From NCBI RefSeq assembly GCF_009931435.1, contig NZ_CP043414.1: a stretch of DNA of 64,000 nucleotides; one strand, given 5' to 3'. This document shows, piece by piece, positions 9,784-25,925 of this stretch (position 1 is its first letter; every line of letters starts with the position of its first letter). The stretch is from Escherichia coli (GTDB lineage Bacteria; Pseudomonadota; Gammaproteobacteria; Enterobacterales; Enterobacteriaceae). The notes beneath the pieces were generated by a model. It did no database searches. It was not told the origin of the DNA and saw nothing but the letters and a program-made list of their open reading frames with translations. A program made the position numbers and the translations under genes.

Positions 9784-10177
9784 CAAAATTTTAACACATC
9801 AGAGATCTATCATAATTCAGTAAAATAACAAAATATTATCAGGAACGAGTTAACGCTGCTCATAACAGTCAAACCGATACTATAAAACCCAATAATTGAA
9901 ACCTTTTCATCATGTCAGTAAGATAGTCATCCTTATGATCTTTATATAAAAAAGCCAACCATGGTGGTTGGCAAAGTGGCACAAACCAGCATAAAAGCTA
10001 TGCTTTGTTTAAAAACCTTCTTTAAATTAAATATATATCGTCCTGACTAAACAGAACTAAAACGGAATGAATTATTTAATCATGTTACTAAATTTGATTT
10101 TGTTTAGCCTCTGTTGAGATCCCTTGTTTTAAATTTCATTTGGATAAAATTCTTAATTAAATCCTTGGGAGTCAATT

Positions 10178-10438
10178 ATGTCTATGCAAAGTCAAGGAAT
10201 GAACTTTGAAATGAACCTATACGCATATTTGAATAAATATGATAGTCGGCTTTCAGAAGAAAAACTTGCAATTGATAAGGCAGTTAGAGATTTATATCTT
10301 TGCAACGAACGCGTGGATAACAAGAGAATTATACTGAAATTGCTCTCATTTTTATCATCTGCTGATGACATTGTTGAAAAAGATATTATCAGGAATGCTT
10401 TGGAAGTGGTGCTTCTTTTTACATTAGACGATATTTAA
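10178..10438 (+). CDS. AriR/YmgB-family paralog (86 aa)
   Basis: Clear similarity visible between …RVDNKRIILKLLSFLSSADDIVEKDIIRNALEVVLLFTLDDI and AriR …[44 protein letters not shown]-rich context. Confidence 0.55.
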   Translation: MSMQSQGMNFEMNLYAYLNKYDSRLSEEKLAIDKAVRDLYLCNERVDNKRIILKLLSFLSSADDIVEKDIIRNALEVVLLFTLDDI

Positions 10439-10686
10439 GTCATCTCAGGAGTTTTAATACACGAAGAGTGCCCGGATACTAGCGATTATATTCATATTTA
10501 ATTATGAGTGCGGGGAAAGAGATTATGCATTGGCATATTTCTCTAACGTCCGCGATAGAAAAACAACTTTAAATATAAATAAAGAACAAACCACCTTTGC
10601 ATTCAACCTCATCTGAGCTGACTATAGTACAAATTATATTGATATTCTTTATCAACATCATTGGAACAGAAGAATAAGGCGAAGAA

Positions 10687-11010
10687 ATGAAGTGTATAGT
10701 AATTGATACTGTAATACAACCTTCGTGTGGTATATATTTTTCAGTCATATGGAGCGATATAAAAATGATCATTTGGTATCGTTCAAATATCTTTCTCCCA
10801 CCTGGCAGCATATTTACAGTTATTAAGTCAGGTATTATACTCGAGGATAAAGAATATCCGATCAGTATTTTTAACGTGGCGCTATTCAACAAAAATTTAT
10901 GGAATTTAATCAAAAATAGTCAAGAGTGTCCTACAGAATCAAACAAAATTACGAATAAATGCCTGCATAAGCATTGCATTATGCAAATATGTCCACATGG
11001 TCTCAAGTAA
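10687..11010 (+). CDS. iraM: RssB anti-adaptor IraM (107 aa)
   Basis: 107-aa [25 protein letters not shown]…KICPHGLK matches my recollection of IraM in sequence and length. Confidence 0.75.
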
Positions 11011-11061: not shown

Positions 11062-11099
11062 GCCCCTTCGTAGAGGGGCTCTATGATTTTGTTTTATTT
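11062..11099 (+). terminator. Intrinsic terminator downstream of iraM
   Basis: Hairpin GCCCCT-tcgtag-AGGGGC followed by a T-rich tract tctatgattttgttttattt. Confidence 0.6.
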
Positions 11100-11744: not shown

Positions 11745-13220
11745 TCAAGAACGCCAAAAAAATCCTGAAAATAGTATAATAACAGGGTAAATTTCAAGTC
11801 GACCAAGAATCATAGCAATACACATGAGATATTTTGCAATATCATTAAGAACACCGAATGAGGATGCGGTAGCCCCAAAACCCAGCCCCATATTATTAAT
11901 GCATGCAGCGACTGTCGCAAATGATGTAAGGAAATCATATCCCATACCGTTTAGCACCAGTATAAAAAACACTGTAAAGAAAGTATAAAGAAAAAAGAAA
12001 CTCCATACAGACCTCATTACGCGGTCTGTAACAATCTTCCCTCCTACATTTACACTAAGCAATGCTCTGGGATGAGAAAGCTGATTTATTTCGTGTTTAC
12101 TTTGTTTAAAAAGTATAAGAAATCTAAGTGATTTAATTCCGCCGCACGTTGAGCCTATACATCCCCCAAAAAAACTTGACAGCAGCAAAAAAACTATCGT
12201 ATGTGTGGGCCAGTTTGAATAATCCTGCGTAGCTAAACCATTATCAGTGAGCATGGAGCTAGCAAGAAAAAACGAATGAACAACACTTCCAGTTAAGTCA
12301 TACATACCTATATGCCAGACCTGGAAAGAGGTAACAATGATAACACCTGAAGCTATTAACAAAAAGAAACGAAGTTCAACATCTCTGAGTAAGGGTTTTA
12401 TTGTTTTCCTGCTTATAACAACATACCAAAGAGTGAAGTTGAAAGCCGATAACAGAGAAAAAGAGCCCGCCACCAGTTCAATCAAATAATTATTGAAATA
12501 ACCGATACTCTCACTATGAGTTGAAAAACCGCCAAGAGAAACTGTAGAAAGTCCATGACAAATAGCATCAAACAACGGCATTCCTGCAAGTCGATAACAA
12601 ACAATACAAGCAATGCCTAATAAAGAATAAGTTATCCAAAGTGTCCGCGACGTATCAGCCAGGCGTGGAGTCAGTTTGTCATCCTTAAATGGTCCTGGCA
12701 TTTCTGACTGATAAAGTTTTGCACCACCAATACCCAATAATGGCAACACAGCAACTGCCAGAACAATAACCCCTAAACCGCCTATAAAATTTAATTGTGA
12801 CCGGTAGAACAAATATGCCCGAGATAATGAACTGACATCATCAATTACTGTTGCTCCTGTTGTTGTTATTCCGGAAACCCCTTCAAACAGCGCGTCAGCA
12901 AACGTTAAATTAAGCTCTGAATCAATCCATAATGGAAATGCGCTAATAATAGAAAATAAAATCCAAAACATTACAATTATAATAAACCCATCACGGGTGC
13001 GTAATTGAATGCCAGATTTTTTAGTGGTATACCACGCTCCGCCACCAATACAAAAAAATATAACAAAAGTAATAAAAAAAACGAACAAGCTTTTTTCTTT
13101 ATAAAACAATGCTACAACCATTGGTGGTAACATTGAAAGACTATAGAGCCAGACCAAGAACCCACACATATGAGTTACAACTCTTACATGAGATGTATTC
13201 ATATCCAAATGTTCTTTCAA
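11745..13220 (-). CDS. trkG: TrkH/TrkG-family potassium uptake membrane protein (491 aa), TrkG-like
   Basis: Polytopic membrane ORF with glycine-rich selectivity-type motifs (SGITTTGATV, IGGLG, GGFSTH, GCIGSTCGG); clearly not the housekeeping TrkH sequence; markedly AT-rich gene. Confidence 0.65.
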   Translation of the reverse strand: MKEHLDMNTSHVRVVTHMCGFLVWLYSLSMLPPMVVALFYKEKSLFVFFITFVIFFCIGGGAWYTTKKSGIQLRTRDGFIIIVMFWILFSIISAFPLWIDSELNLTFADALFEGVSGITTTGATVIDDVSSLSRAYLFYRSQLNFIGGLGVIVLAVAVLPLLGIGGAKLYQSEMPGPFKDDKLTPRLADTSRTLWITYSLLGIACIVCYRLAGMPLFDAICHGLSTVSLGGFSTHSESIGYFNNYLIELVAGSFSLLSAFNFTLWYVVISRKTIKPLLRDVELRFFLLIASGVIIVTSFQVWHIGMYDLTGSVVHSFFLASSMLTDNGLATQDYSNWPTHTIVFLLLSSFFGGCIGSTCGGIKSLRFLILFKQSKHEINQLSHPRALLSVNVGGKIVTDRVMRSVWSFFFLYTFFTVFFILVLNGMGYDFLTSFATVAACINNMGLGFGATASSFGVLNDIAKYLMCIAMILGRLEIYPVIILFSGFFWRS

Positions 13221-13629
13221 TTATAACCACCTTACTGCAATGTCATGATTATACTGTATAAATTTTAACTCTTCTTAGATCTTACTTCACTGGTCCTTAT
13301 GAAACAATCAGCAAAATGAATCTTATTATAACACTGTTCGGTTATGTATTGTTGAGCCTTCCCGCTGGGCCTGCATCATTACAAGTCGCTCCCTATGGGG
13401 CTTTGTCGAATAAATAATTTTTCGGTAAGTGTCCCCTGAGCAGGTTGTATCTTCAGGCAGTATGAACACTTTCTGGTATACCTACCTTCGTCATTATGTT
13501 CAGCGTATGCACCATGACCAAAGCCTCTGCAACCGGCCTATCATAATCTAGCAGCATCAGAGAACCTCAGAATAACTGTTTTACCCTGTACATTGCCGTT
13601 TCCGCTATTGAGCAACGATTGTAATCTTT

Positions 13630-15617
<1,988 letters not shown>

Positions 15618-16113
15618 TCAATCGCTGATACGCGACTGCACAGTTACGGTCGGCATACTCACCGGGCCAGTAACCCGCTCCTTTTTGGGGTGGGATGAGC
15701 GCGCTGATTTTCACACGGCGCAGCTGCTCGTAACAGAGCCGAGAGGCGTAAACTCCGTCTGCTGCTGTCCTGATTTTTTGATGGGTTTGCCGGATTAATC
15801 CGGCTACACCTCTACATCCGTTACGCTGAATGCTGAGGTCGCCCTTGGGAAGAAGGCATTGCTGACTTATACCAATCCGAAATCACCTACTCGTCCAACC
15901 AGACAGGGAGGGGCCTCGGTTGATAAGAGCTCTGTTATTGATGTGCCAGTTGGTGATTCTAACTTTTGCTTTGTAACGGGACGAGCCGTGTTGGCAGATG
16001 ATGTGTGGTCTGATCCTTAAACTCAGTAAAAGTACGATTTATTCAAAAAAGCCCCTCCACTATGATTTCGATTTAAGGGGCTGATGATTATGTAACGCGA
16101 ATTTACCGGATCC

Positions 16114-17499
<1,386 letters not shown>

Positions 17500-22251: not shown

Positions 22252-23625
<1,374 letters not shown>

Positions 23626-23648
23626 GCCTCAAATCAGTGCCGGATGGC

Positions 23649-23680
23649 GATGCTGTCCGGCCTGCTTATTAAGATTATCC
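23649..23680 (+). terminator. Hairpin (REP-like) downstream of purB
   Basis: GCCGGA-11 nt-TCCGGC stem followed by a weak T tract; could be a REP-type element rather than a strong terminator. Confidence 0.35.
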
Positions 23681-23716
23681 GCTTTTTATTTTTTCACTTT
23701 ACCTCCCCTCCCCGCT

Positions 23717-23733
23717 GGTTTATTTAATGTTTA
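23717..23733 (+). promoter_or_regulatory. PhoP box (direct repeat GGTTTA-N5-TGTTTA) in the phoPQ promoter
   Basis: Sequence GGTTTAtttaaTGTTTA about 60 bp upstream of the phoP start matches the (T/G)GTTTA-N5-(T/G)GTTTA consensus. Confidence 0.8.
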
Positions 23734-23793
23734 CCCCCATAACGACATAATCGCGTTACACTATTTTAATAATTAAAACAGGGAGAATGAAAA

Positions 23794-24465
23794 ATGCGCG
23801 TACTGGTTGTTGAAGACAATGCGTTGTTACGTCACCATCTTAAAGTTCAGATTCAGGATGCTGGTCATCAGGTCGATGACGCAGAAGATGCCAAAGAAGC
23901 CGATTATTATCTCAATGAGCATTTACCGGATATTGCGATTGTCGATCTCGGTTTGCCTGACGAGGACGGTCTGTCACTGATTCGCCGCTGGCGTAGCAAT
24001 GATGTTTCACTGCCGATTCTGGTATTAACCGCCCGTGAAAGCTGGCAGGACAAAGTCGAAGTATTAAGTGCTGGCGCTGATGATTACGTGACTAAACCGT
24101 TTCATATTGAAGAGGTGATGGCGCGAATGCAGGCATTAATGCGGCGTAATAGCGGTCTGGCTTCACAGGTCATTTCGCTACCACCGTTTCAGGTTGATCT
24201 CTCCCGCCGTGAATTATCTATTAATGACGAAGTGATCAAACTGACCGCGTTCGAATACACCATTATGGAAACGTTGATACGCAATAATGGCAAAGTGGTC
24301 AGCAAAGATTCGTTAATGCTACAACTCTACCCGGATGCGGAGCTGCGGGAAAGCCATACCATTGATGTACTGATGGGACGTCTGCGCAAAAAAATTCAGG
24401 CACAATATCCGCAAGAAGTGATTACCACCGTTCGCGGCCAGGGCTATCTGTTCGAATTGCGCTGA
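23794..24465 (+). CDS. phoP: Response regulator PhoP (223 aa)
   Basis: Receiver domain (MRVLVVEDN…D…) plus OmpR-type winged helix; 223 aa; overlaps the phoQ start. Confidence 0.95.
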
Positions 24466-25925
24466 TGAAAAAATTACTGCGTCTTTTTTTCCCGCTCTCG
24501 CTGCGGGTACGTTTTCTGTTAGCAACGGCAGCAGTAGTATTGGTGCTTTCGCTTGCCTACGGAATGGTTGCGCTGATCGGTTATAGCGTCAGTTTCGATA
24601 AAACCACGTTTCGGCTGTTACGTGGCGAGAGCAATCTGTTCTATACCCTTGCGAAGTGGGAAAATAATAAATTGCATGTCGAGTTACCCGAAAATATCGA
24701 CAAGCAAAGCCCCACCATGACGCTAATTTATGATGAGAACGGGCAGCTTTTATGGGCGCAACGTGACGTGCCCTGGCTGATGAAAATGATCCAGCCTGAC
24801 TGGCTGAAATCGAATGGTTTTCATGAAATTGAAGCGGATGTTAACGACACCAGCCTGTTACTGAGTGGAGATCATTCAATACAGCAACAGTTGCAGGAAG
24901 TGCGGGAAGATGATGACGACGCGGAGATGACCCACTCGGTGGCGGTAAACGTCTACCCGGCAACATCGCGGATGCCAAAGTTAACCATTGTGGTGGTGGA
25001 TACCATTCCGGTGGAGCTAAAAAGTTCCTATATGGTCTGGAGCTGGTTTATCTATGTGCTCTCAGCCAATCTGCTGTTAGTGATCCCGCTGCTGTGGGTC
25101 GCCGCCTGGTGGAGTTTACGCCCCATCGAAGCCCTGGCAAAAGAAGTCCGCGAACTGGAAGAACATAACCGCGAATTGCTCAATCCAGCCACAACGCGAG
25201 AACTGACCAGTCTGGTACGAAACCTGAACCGACTGTTAAAAAGTGAACGCGAACGTTACGACAAATATCGTACGACGCTCACCGACCTGACCCATAGTCT
25301 GAAAACGCCACTGGCGGTGCTGCAAAGTACGCTGCGTTCTCTGCGTAGTGAGAAGATGAGCGTCAGTGATGCTGAGCCGGTGATGCTGGAGCAAATCAGC
25401 CGCATTTCACAGCAAATTGGCTACTACCTGCATCGTGCCAGTATGCGCGGTGGGACATTGCTTAGCCGCGAGCTGCATCCGGTCGCCCCTCTGTTGGACA
25501 ATCTCACCTCGGCGCTGAACAAAGTGTATCAACGCAAAGGGGTCAATATCTCTCTCGATATTTCACCAGAGATCAGCTTTGTTGGTGAGCAGAACGATTT
25601 TGTCGAGGTGATGGGCAACGTGCTGGATAACGCCTGTAAATATTGCCTCGAGTTTGTCGAAATTTCTGCAAGGCAAACCGACGAGCATCTCTATATTGTG
25701 GTCGAGGATGATGGCCCCGGTATTCCATTAAGCAAGCGAGAGGTCATTTTCGACCGTGGTCAACGGGTTGATACTTTACGCCCTGGGCAAGGTGTAGGGC
25801 TGGCGGTAGCCCGCGAAATCACCGAGCAGTATGAGGGTAAAATCGTCGCCGGAGAGAGCATGCTGGGCGGTGCGCGGATGGAGGTGATTTTTGGCCGCCA
25901 GCATTCTGCGCCGAAAGATGAATAA
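24465..25925 (+). CDS. phoQ: Sensor histidine kinase PhoQ (486 aa)
   Basis: Two TM segments, periplasmic sensor domain, H-box ([12 protein letters not shown]), HATPase; 486 aa. Confidence 0.95.

What the first reader, a model, noticed from the sequence alone, without database searches (positions are those of the whole stretch)
10178..10438. Second AriR/YmgB-family gene between ycgX and iraM
The 86-aa product is clearly similar to AriR (shared …N(K/R)IIL(S/K)L…DI…D(I/V)IR…LE(I/V)VL…DD motif), giving this locus two members of the connector family that links the blue-light/cold signal to Rcs and acid resistance. It lies beside iraM, another small stress connector, in AT-rich DNA.
Basis: seen in the sequence. 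Interest (0 to 1): 0.4.

Follow-up and report, generated by a model that had tools for sequence, protein, structure and literature searches.

The report
Rare second AriR-like gene upstream of iraM
This is a real, intact gene for a second AriR/YmgB-type small stress-signalling protein just upstream of iraM; only about 0.5% of complete E. coli genomes have it, because most strains, K-12 included, carry an old deletion that left only its promoter region and first ten or so codons in front of iraM.

Summary
The ORF at 10178-10438 (+) is real and belongs to the YmgB/AriR family. It scores 51.6 bits on Pfam PF10798 (cut-off 22.3), is 40% identical to the window's own AriR, and its predicted fold superposes on the YmgB crystal structure 2OXL at 1.1 Å. 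It keeps every invariant family residue, including the arginine AriR needs to bind SpoT.

It is not a fragment. Three deeply diverged alleles (dS 0.6-0.8) give dN/dS of 0.12-0.15.

It is not a well-known gene. RefSeq gives it only the generic family name, and I found no paper on it.

It sits between ycgX and iraM in 29 of 5426 complete E. coli genomes. In 3884 genomes, including K-12, one shared 443-bp deletion removed it. That deletion left its upstream region, ribosome-binding site and first ~10 codons fused to iraM as a 22-codon ORF overlapping the iraM start.

K-12 iraM transcription depends on PhoP. The intact gene therefore probably sits behind that same PhoP-responsive promoter region, where PhoP-box-like sites are conserved, and not behind a BluR operator (none is present).

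Verdict: an uncharacterised, rare member of a known family, with modest interest. The link to PhoP and iraM is inferred, not shown.

The parts
10178..10438 (+). AriR/YmgB-family paralogue, 86 aa. The start conserved in all alleles is the second ATG at 10184, giving 84 aa.
   Evidence: ORF. Pfam PF10798 51.6 bits. 2OXL E=1.1e-10. 40% identity to AriR. AF2 pLDDT 83.4, with Foldseek top hit 2OXL at TM 0.93 and rmsd 1.1 Å. dN/dS 0.12-0.15.
10168..10172 (+). Shine-Dalgarno-like GGGAG, 6 nt before the ATG at 10178 and 12 nt before the ATG at 10184.
   Evidence: Read directly from the sequence. A G-rich equivalent is present in all haplotypes, including the K-12 relic.
10101..10117 (+). PhoP-box-like direct repeat TGTTTAGCCTCTGTTGA, one mismatch to (T/G)GTTTA-N5-(T/G)GTTTA.
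   Evidence: The window holds 5 such matches against 1.1 expected. The only exact match is the known box upstream of phoP. The first half-site is invariant in all 9-10 haplotypes. The second is TGTTGA in E. coli genomes with the intact gene, and CATTGA or TATTGA in the deletion haplotypes and in L011. This is an inferred site, not a shown one.
10130..10135 (+). Candidate -10 hexamer TAAATT, 12 nt downstream of the PhoP-like box.
   Evidence: It lies in the block TT(A/T)TAAATTT, which is invariant across all haplotypes aligned. The generic sigma-70 scan did not pick it up, as expected for an activator-dependent promoter that lacks a -35. Inferred.
10048..10064 (-). Second PhoP-box-like repeat, in inverted orientation: CGTTTTAGTTCTGTTTA, two mismatches.
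   Evidence: It is conserved in every haplotype, K-12 and the non-coli locus L011 included. It could serve the + strand promoter or a minus-strand element.
10439..10686 (+). 248-nt spacer between the paralogue and iraM, with no terminator-like site on the + strand.
   Evidence: Terminator scan. The spacer is 65-80% conserved among intact lineages and contains the conserved block TAAATAAAGAACAAACC. Almost all of it is missing in K-12.
10687..11010 (+). iraM (anti-adaptor of RssB), a divergent allele 72% identical to K-12 IraM.
   Evidence: NCBIfam NF007393, 143.6 bits. BLASTP against K-12 IraM. It is linked to the paralogue in all three intact lineages.
11062..11079 (+). First terminator-like hairpin on the + strand downstream of the paralogue. 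It lies after iraM.

Best explanation
The ORF encodes a functional small helical protein of the YmgB/AriR family. It forms an old, separate branch of that family, not a recent copy of ariR. It is an ancestral part of the bluF-bluR-(ycgX)-X-iraM gene block. Most E. coli lost it through a single 443-bp deletion that fused its promoter region, ribosome-binding site and first ~10 codons to iraM. iraM transcription in K-12 depends on PhoQ/PhoP, and in K-12 the only DNA left upstream of iraM is the paralogue's own upstream region. The intact gene is therefore most likely transcribed from a PhoP-responsive promoter and, with no terminator in between, probably on one transcript with iraM. In carrier strains, low Mg2+, acid or osmotic upshift would then induce two connector proteins together. 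IraM stabilises RpoS. The AriR-like protein, by analogy with AriR, would act through protein-protein contacts, activating the Rcs phosphorelay and/or binding SpoT to raise ppGpp. Shown here: gene integrity, family membership, predicted fold, purifying selection, distribution, and the deletion. Inferred: PhoP control and co-transcription. Analogy only: the molecular targets.
For: Family and fold: Pfam 51.6 bits, 2OXL E=1.1e-10, and an AF2 model at pLDDT 83.4 whose only significant PDB match is 2OXL (TM 0.93, rmsd 1.1 Å, 43% identity). All invariant and near-invariant family columns are kept, including R72. This corresponds to AriR R74, whose R74G change abolishes SpoT binding and ppGpp accumulation (PMC10704370).

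Selection: dN/dS is 0.12-0.155 among three lineages with dS 0.6-0.8, and 0.06-0.15 in the C-terminal half. A binomial test against neutrality gives p=4e-7.

Separate branch: AriR is 45-62% identical to its orthologues in other genera but only 40% identical to this protein, which forms its own 50%-identity cluster.

Ancestral and then deleted: both E. coli alleles lie at the same site. K-12 is about 95% identical to the GF4-3 haplotype on both sides of a 443-bp gap, and all four deletion haplotypes read share the same junction. The junction occurs in 3884 of 5426 genomes, against 29 with the intact gene. The paralogue-iraM pair also occurs beside bluR at a different chromosomal site in a genome whose flanks are only ~88% identical to E. 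coli.

PhoP: iraM transcription rises about 20-fold in a PhoQ-dependent way (PMC5740661; review PMC10948607). PhoP-box-like sites at 10101-10117 and 10048-10064 lie in the most conserved blocks of an otherwise ~73% identical region. The same pattern finds the phoP promoter box exactly. No + strand terminator lies before iraM. No BluR motif is present.
Against: No transcript, transcription start site or PhoP-binding data could be obtained for this region. The papers that mapped the K-12 iraM promoter are not held, and the genome-wide start-site supplements did not cover it. The second half-site of the forward PhoP-like box is degenerate in K-12 itself (CATTGA). That weakens it as the K-12 PhoP site, so PhoP control in K-12 could be indirect or act through the inverted site. 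The spacer holds a conserved block that could be an iraM-proximal promoter in intact haplotypes, so the two genes may be separate transcription units. At 40% identity to AriR, shared targets (Rcs, SpoT) are far from assured; a family-typical Glu in 'LE' is Ser here. Loss from more than 99% of genomes shows the gene is dispensable. Within the window-type allele I saw 3 non-synonymous and 0 synonymous differences plus loss of the first ATG in 2013C-4282. Those numbers are too small to interpret.
Confidence: 0.55

Rival explanations
1. The gene is expressed and functional, but as an independent unit that PhoP does not control. For example, it could be silenced by H-NS and induced by RpoS or another signal. 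In that case iraM in intact haplotypes would use its own promoter in the 248-nt spacer, and the K-12 arrangement would be a secondary promoter capture.
For: A conserved block with a PhoP-box-like sequence on the minus strand lies in the spacer, 95-110 nt before iraM (window 10576-10592). The forward PhoP-like box is only a one-mismatch match, and it is degenerate in K-12. The region has 31-33% GC, typical of H-NS-bound DNA.
Against: K-12 lacks the spacer yet still shows PhoQ-dependent iraM transcription. A PhoP-responsive element must therefore lie upstream of the deletion, in DNA homologous to the paralogue's upstream region. No + strand promoter-like site or terminator was found between the two genes.
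Confidence: 0.25
2. The ORF is a dispensable relic that merely remains open in a few lineages, with no present function. It would be on its way to the loss already fixed in most E. coli.
For: It is absent from more than 99% of complete E. coli genomes and from all 100,044 GTDB species-representative genomes. At least one frameshifted or truncated variant exists in the protein database (P0017). The first ATG is lost in 2013C-4282.
Against: dN/dS is 0.12-0.15 over dS 0.6-0.8 in three lineages, p=4e-7. All family-invariant residues are retained. The fold prediction is confident. The upstream region is conserved more strongly than the surrounding non-coding DNA.
Confidence: 0.1
3. The protein modulates AriR itself instead of acting as a parallel connector. 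AriR is a dimer, so the paralogue could form heterodimers with it and titrate or retarget it.
For: AriR crystallises and behaves as a dimer (2OXL; two-hybrid self-interaction in PMC10704370). The paralogue shares the helical core at 1.1 Å rmsd. Every E. coli carrier genome examined also has ariR.
Against: This was not tested in any way here. In PT62 the ariR side of the locus is disrupted by IS1 while the paralogue is kept. That argues the paralogue does not depend on AriR.
Confidence: 0.1

Closest known systems
AriR (YmgB, b1166) of E. coli K-12; PDB 2OXL; Pfam PF10798
   Same: The size is the same (86 vs 88 aa), and the two align collinearly from residue 14/16 to the C-terminus at 40% identity. 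The predicted helical core is the same. All family-invariant residues are conserved, including the SpoT-contact arginine. Both genes lie in the same chromosomal neighbourhood.
   Different: It is a separate, older branch: AriR orthologues in other genera are 45-62% identical to AriR, against 40% for this protein. It lies on the other side of bluF-bluR and stands alone rather than sitting inside ycgZ-ymgA-ariR-ymgC. It has no BluR operator motif. It is rare, while ariR is common. No function has been tested.
IraM / PmrD-type PhoP-activated connector proteins
   Same: This is a resemblance in how it would work, not in family. It is a small stand-alone protein next to iraM, likely induced through PhoQ/PhoP and likely acting by binding a signalling protein rather than DNA.
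   Different: The fold and sequence are unrelated: IraM has a PmrD-like fold and this protein is an all-helical YmgB fold. PhoP control of the paralogue is inferred only.
YcgZ and YmgA (the other small proteins of the ycgZ-ymgABC operon)
   Same: They are small proteins of the same locus, described as modulating the Rcs pathway. YcgZ is a marginal PF10798 member at 24.6 bits.
   Different: There is no detectable pairwise similarity to the new ORF: YmgA gives E=0.18 and YcgZ gives no alignment.

Membership tests
YmgB/AriR family (Pfam PF10798) | Match to the family HMM above the curated cut-off | tested here: met
   51.6 bits against a cut-off of 22.3, E=8.7e-14, covering profile positions 2-59 of 59. 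For comparison, AriR scores 90.3 bits and YcgZ 24.6 bits.
YmgB/AriR family (Pfam PF10798) | Helical fold of the solved YmgB structure (2OXL) | tested here: met
   The AF2 model has pLDDT 83.4 and four helices. The only significant Foldseek PDB hit is 2OXL_A, with TM 0.93 (target-normalised) and rmsd 1.1 Å over 60 columns. This is a predicted structure, not an experimental one.
YmgB/AriR family (Pfam PF10798) | Conserved C-terminal motif NK-II..L…D…D(I/V).R..LE(I/V)V..T.DD, including the Arg equivalent to AriR R74 | tested here: met
   E28, N48, K49, I52, L55, D64, D69, R72, L75, E76, V78, T82 and D84 are all present in a 28-sequence family alignment. The role of R74 is taken from PMC10704370.
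YmgB/AriR family (Pfam PF10798) | Small stand-alone protein of about 80-110 aa, found in Enterobacteriaceae | tested here: met
   It is 86 or 84 aa. The family's 36 cluster representatives range from 63 to 118 aa, and those with names come from Cedecea, Salmonella, Enterobacter, Yokenella and Silvania.
AriR orthologue (the ariR gene proper) | Position inside the ycgZ-ymgA-ariR-ymgC operon under the BluR-repressed ycgZ promoter | tested here: not met
   It lies between ycgX and iraM, on the opposite side of bluF-bluR. No GTACA/TGTAC BluR motif lies upstream, while the motif is found at 6753-6771 in the bluF-ycgZ intergenic region. It is therefore a paralogue, not ariR.
AriR orthologue (the ariR gene proper) | Activates the Rcs phosphorelay, binds SpoT, and forms a homodimer | not testable with these tools
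   This needs genetics or biochemistry. Only conservation of the SpoT-contact arginine and of helix 3 could be checked.
PhoP regulon (E. coli) | PhoP box (T/G)GTTTA-N5-(T/G)GTTTA suitably placed at the promoter | tested here: inconclusive
   A one-mismatch box lies at 10101-10117, 12 nt before a conserved TAAATT. A two-mismatch inverted box lies at 10048-10064. Both are conserved across lineages. The second half-site is degenerate in K-12, and no binding data exist.
PhoP regulon (E. coli) | PhoP/PhoQ-dependent transcription | not testable with these tools
   This is shown in the literature only for K-12 iraM. For the paralogue it is inferred from the deletion geometry.

The most novel reading that the evidence does not exclude
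The ancestral arrangement was a PhoP-controlled two-connector operon, AriR-like gene then iraM. Through it, one envelope/Mg2+ signal fed both RpoS stabilisation (IraM) and an AriR-type output (Rcs and/or SpoT-ppGpp). The familiar K-12 iraM promoter and leader would then be the paralogue's promoter plus a 22-codon relic ORF, translationally coupled to iraM through an overlapping ATGA. Rare carrier strains would retain a PhoP-to-Rcs/ppGpp branch that K-12 studies cannot see.
Probability: 0.35. Interest if true: 0.55.

Novelty: new member of a known kind. Interest (0 to 1): 0.32.

Why it matters
AriR/YmgB is one of the few small proteins shown to influence both the Rcs phosphorelay and SpoT-dependent ppGpp synthesis. 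The natural signal that triggers it is still unclear; the authors of PMC10704370 say so themselves. A second, diverged family member placed behind what looks like the PhoP-responsive iraM promoter would give a concrete, testable route from PhoQ/PhoP to those outputs in some natural isolates.

It also changes how the K-12 iraM regulatory region should be read. The leader of a well-studied RpoS regulator appears to be the stump of a deleted gene, including a conserved 22-codon upstream ORF that overlaps the iraM start codon. That ORF could affect IraM translation.

If the gene proves to be silent or redundant, the finding is just one more rare accessory paralogue in a variable, AT-rich, prophage-flanked region.

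Tried and rejected
- **Relation to YmgA or YcgZ.** No pairwise similarity was found. NCBIfam has no model that hits the ORF.
- **Control by BluR.** This is rejected, because the GTACA/TGTAC motif is absent upstream but found at the ycgZ promoter as a positive control.
- **Conserved pairing with other IraM-family genes.** iraL sits as a moron in a lambdoid prophage with no YmgB-family neighbour, so the pairing is specific to the iraM locus.
- **Mobile-element origin.** There is no match in 50,697 phage records. Plasmid records gave only distant AriR homologues below 40% identity.
- **Presence in other species' reference genomes.** Two degenerate DNA patterns, one a full back-translation of EKDIIRN(A/T)LEVVLLFT, found nothing in 100,044 GTDB species representatives. 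The only non-coli occurrence I found is in Logan assemblies ERR3970404 and ERR3970605, whose species I could not name.
- **Experimental start site and PhoP site for K-12 iraM.** Bougdour 2008, Battesti 2012, Minagawa 2003 and Zwir 2005 are not held. The Cappable-seq table is truncated before 1.21 Mb. The SMRT-Cappable-seq supplements do not mention iraM.
- **First alignment against K-12.** Alignment A1 placed the deletion around the whole gene. I rejected that placement after aligning K-12 with the closer GF4-3-type haplotype, which shows that K-12 keeps the ribosome-binding site and about 10 codons.
- **Rfam.** There were only sub-threshold hits.
- **Pfam PmrD hit for the neighbouring IraM-like gene.** The hit listed was not reproduced with the Pfam copy used here.

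Full report
An 86-codon ATG ORF lies at 10178-10438 on the + strand, with GGGAG 6 nt before the ATG. The gene order in the window is pdeG, ymgC, ariR (5850-6116), ymgA and ycgZ on the minus strand. bluF (from 6932), bluR (8426-9157), ycgX (9379-9783), the ORF and iraM (10687-11010) follow on the plus strand. This rests, Pfam and NCBIfam, and the RefSeq annotation of a 99.9% identical genome. GC is 0.31-0.33 around the ORF and 0.49 for the window as a whole.

**2. It is a true YmgB/AriR-family protein.**
- Pfam PF10798 scores 51.6 bits against a cut-off of 22.3, E=8.7e-14.
- Among solved structures the only real hit is YmgB, 2OXL, at E=1.1e-10.
- Identity to the window's own AriR is 40% over 73 residues, collinear to the C-terminus, E=5e-17.
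- An exhaustive HMMER scan of 1.84 billion representatives found a small family: 36 representatives at E≤1e-3. The named ones are from Enterobacteriaceae.
- In a 28-sequence alignment the ORF keeps every invariant and near-invariant column.
- An AlphaFold2 model built on that alignment is confident (pLDDT 83.4, four helices). Its only significant PDB match is 2OXL, with target-normalised TM 0.93 and rmsd 1.1 Å.
- R72 corresponds to AriR R74. The R74G change abolishes SpoT binding and ppGpp accumulation but not Rcs activation (PMC10704370).
- The ORF shows no similarity to YmgA or YcgZ. YcgZ is itself a marginal PF10798 member.

**3. It is a gene under selection, not a fragment.** I found three deep allelic lineages:
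- the window type (86 aa);
- an 84-aa type in GF4-3, UTME-7 and PT62, 74% identical in protein and about 75% in DNA;
- an 86-aa type in Logan assemblies ERR3970404 and ERR3970605, 83% identical in protein.

Nei-Gojobori dN/dS between them is 0.12-0.155 at dS 0.6-0.8, and 0.06-0.15 in the C-terminal half. The excess of synonymous change has p=4e-7. The start codon conserved in all lineages is the second ATG, at 10184. PGAP's three different start calls (86, 84 and 75 aa) reflect this uncertainty.

**4. It is an old, separate branch.** AriR is 45-62% identical to its orthologues in Enterobacter, Yokenella, Cedecea and Salmonella, but only 40% identical to this protein. The protein forms its own cluster at 50% identity and sits on its own long branch. 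The neighbour-joining tree rests on only 73 columns, so I rely on the identity values more than on the topology.

**5. Distribution and the K-12 deletion.** Only 29 of 5426 complete E. coli genomes carry the gene: 18 with the window-type allele and 11 with the 84-aa allele. It is always found between ycgX and iraM. K-12 instead has ymgL and ymgK annotated in the ycgX-iraM gap.

- Aligned with the GF4-3-type haplotype, K-12 is about 95% identical on both sides of a 443-bp gap.
- The gap runs from about codon 10 of the gene to 26 nt before the iraM ATG.
- All four deletion haplotypes I read (K-12, O157:H7 LSU61, EC11, 98232) share the same junction, although they differ from each other by up to about 10%. 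I read this as a single old event.
- The junction is present in 3884 of 5426 genomes. Most of the remaining genomes gave no match to the iraM-containing junction query, in line with the report that strains such as CFT073 lack iraM (PMC4045071).
- What remains in K-12 is the paralogue's upstream region, its G-rich ribosome-binding site, and a 22-codon ORF, MQNQEINILMNHIKYRGIRHNK (NC_000913.3 1212068 to 1212000, minus strand). Its TGA overlaps the iraM ATG. It is intact in all four deletion haplotypes.

**6. The gene pair travels with the blu module.** In ERR3970404/605 the flanking core genes (gapC, cybB, ydcI, hglS, opgD) are only about 88% identical to any E. coli genome. There the order is ariR, ycgZ, bluF, bluR, the paralogue, then a 106-aa IraM homologue, inserted at a different chromosomal site and without ycgX. 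About 330 nt upstream of the paralogue is homologous to the window. So the paralogue-iraM linkage is conserved in three lineages and two chromosomal contexts. The paralogue is absent from phage records, and plasmid records hold no close copy. It is also absent from all GTDB species-representative genomes.

**7. Regulation (inferred).** iraM transcription in K-12 depends on PhoQ/PhoP (PMC5740661; PMC10948607). The K-12 deletion removed nearly all DNA between the paralogue's tenth codon and iraM. The PhoP-responsive element in K-12 must therefore lie in DNA homologous to the region upstream of the intact gene.

- A PhoP-box search finds TGTTTAGCCTCTGTTGA at 10101-10117, one mismatch. The window holds 5 such matches against 1.1 expected, and the only exact match is the autoregulated phoP promoter at 23717-23733.
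- It sits 12 nt before an invariant TAAATT.
- A second, inverted, two-mismatch box lies at 10048-10064.
- Both boxes fall in the best-conserved blocks of a region that is otherwise about 73% identical.
- The second half-site of the forward box is degenerate in the deletion haplotypes and in L011.
- There is no + strand terminator between the ORF and iraM; the first one follows iraM at 11062-11079.
- No BluR motif is present upstream.
- A conserved block in the spacer (10576-10592) could be a second, iraM-proximal promoter, so co-transcription is likely but not certain.
- I could not obtain any mapped start site for K-12 iraM.

**8. Mechanism.** By homology the protein should act as AriR does, through protein contacts rather than enzymatic activity. 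AriR activates the Rcs phosphorelay (PMC3509220). [quoted passage not shown] Helix 3 carries most of the SpoT-contact substitutions in AriR, and it is the most conserved part of the paralogue. At 40% identity, I hold target conservation as plausible and no more than that.

**9. Novelty and score.** RefSeq already labels the gene with the family name. No paper in the library describes an AriR-like or YmgB-like paralogue or the relic peptide. It is a new, uncharacterised member of a known family. The more interesting by-product is the reinterpretation of the K-12 iraM leader. Interest 0.32.

Noticed in passing
K-12 NC_000913.3 1212068-1212000 (minus strand); equivalent to window 10184 to about 10215 fused to 10661-10689: In K-12 and the other deletion haplotypes, a 22-codon ORF (MQNQEINILMNHIKYRGIRHNK) begins at the paralogue's start codon and ends in a TGA that overlaps the iraM ATG (ATGA). 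It is intact in 4 of 4 haplotypes read, is not annotated in K-12, and was not found in the literature searched. It may couple IraM translation to an upstream ORF.
   Followed up: partly
window 9944-10064, minus strand: A terminator-like hairpin (GCCAACCACCAUGGUUGGC followed by a U-run, 9972..9954) ends a 93-nt stretch that folds with z=-2.4. The stretch gives a weak full-length RprA (RF00034) hit of 29.3 bits against a gathering score of 70. An inverted PhoP-like box and a TATATA lie just upstream on that strand. The hairpin is intact in every haplotype that keeps the paralogue and degraded in all four deletion haplotypes, where the ymgK start codon appears instead. It could be a small RNA, but this remains unexplained.
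   Followed up: partly
window 10687-11010: The window's IraM is only 72% identical to K-12 IraM (dS about 0.65-0.8). That places it between K-12 IraM and the IraL of CFT073, which the IraL paper reports as 58.9% identical. The same paper reported all iraM matches as at least 95% conserved.
   Followed up: partly
window 11745-17490: Between iraM and icd lie trkG (11745-13220, -), an IS21-type istB/istA pair (13697-15498, -) and a 458-aa ORF (16114-17490, -). In K-12 this position holds prophage e14, and trkG, from my recollection of the K-12 map, lies in the Rac prophage. The 18 window-type genomes share trkG and the 458-aa ORF, but none has the IS21 insertion.
   Followed up: partly
window about 9831 (between ycgX and the conserved upstream block): The window and strain 2020CK-00188 lack about 437 bp that the other window-type carriers have. 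Part of it is homologous to the K-12 ymgL region. The conserved promoter-proximal blocks are untouched.
   Followed up: partly
window 23717-23733 and 23794-25925: phoP and phoQ lie only 13 kb from the locus. The phoP promoter carries the window's single exact PhoP box (GGTTTATTTAATGTTTA), which served as a positive control for the pattern search.
   Followed up: yes
L011 1-12261 (Logan ERR3970404) and L012: In a genome whose core flanks are about 88% identical to E. coli, the whole module ariR, ycgZ, bluF, bluR, paralogue and iraM is inserted between cybB and ydcI. That is where E. coli has trg, going by the features under the E. coli matches. ycgX is absent. The species was not identified. 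This suggests the module moves as a block.
   Followed up: partly
window 22255-25925 (purB-phoPQ): Core genes of the window are at best 99.0% identical to any of 5426 complete E. coli genomes and about 97.4-98% identical to most of them. The bluF-ycgX stretch is about 93.5% identical to K-12. The source strain therefore belongs to a rarely sequenced E. coli lineage.
   Followed up: no
window 9963-10052 (+): The ymgK reading frame validated in K-12 (14 aa, PMC6001520) is not conserved as such here. In the window the homologous ATG opens a 29-codon ORF inside the hairpin region.
   Followed up: no
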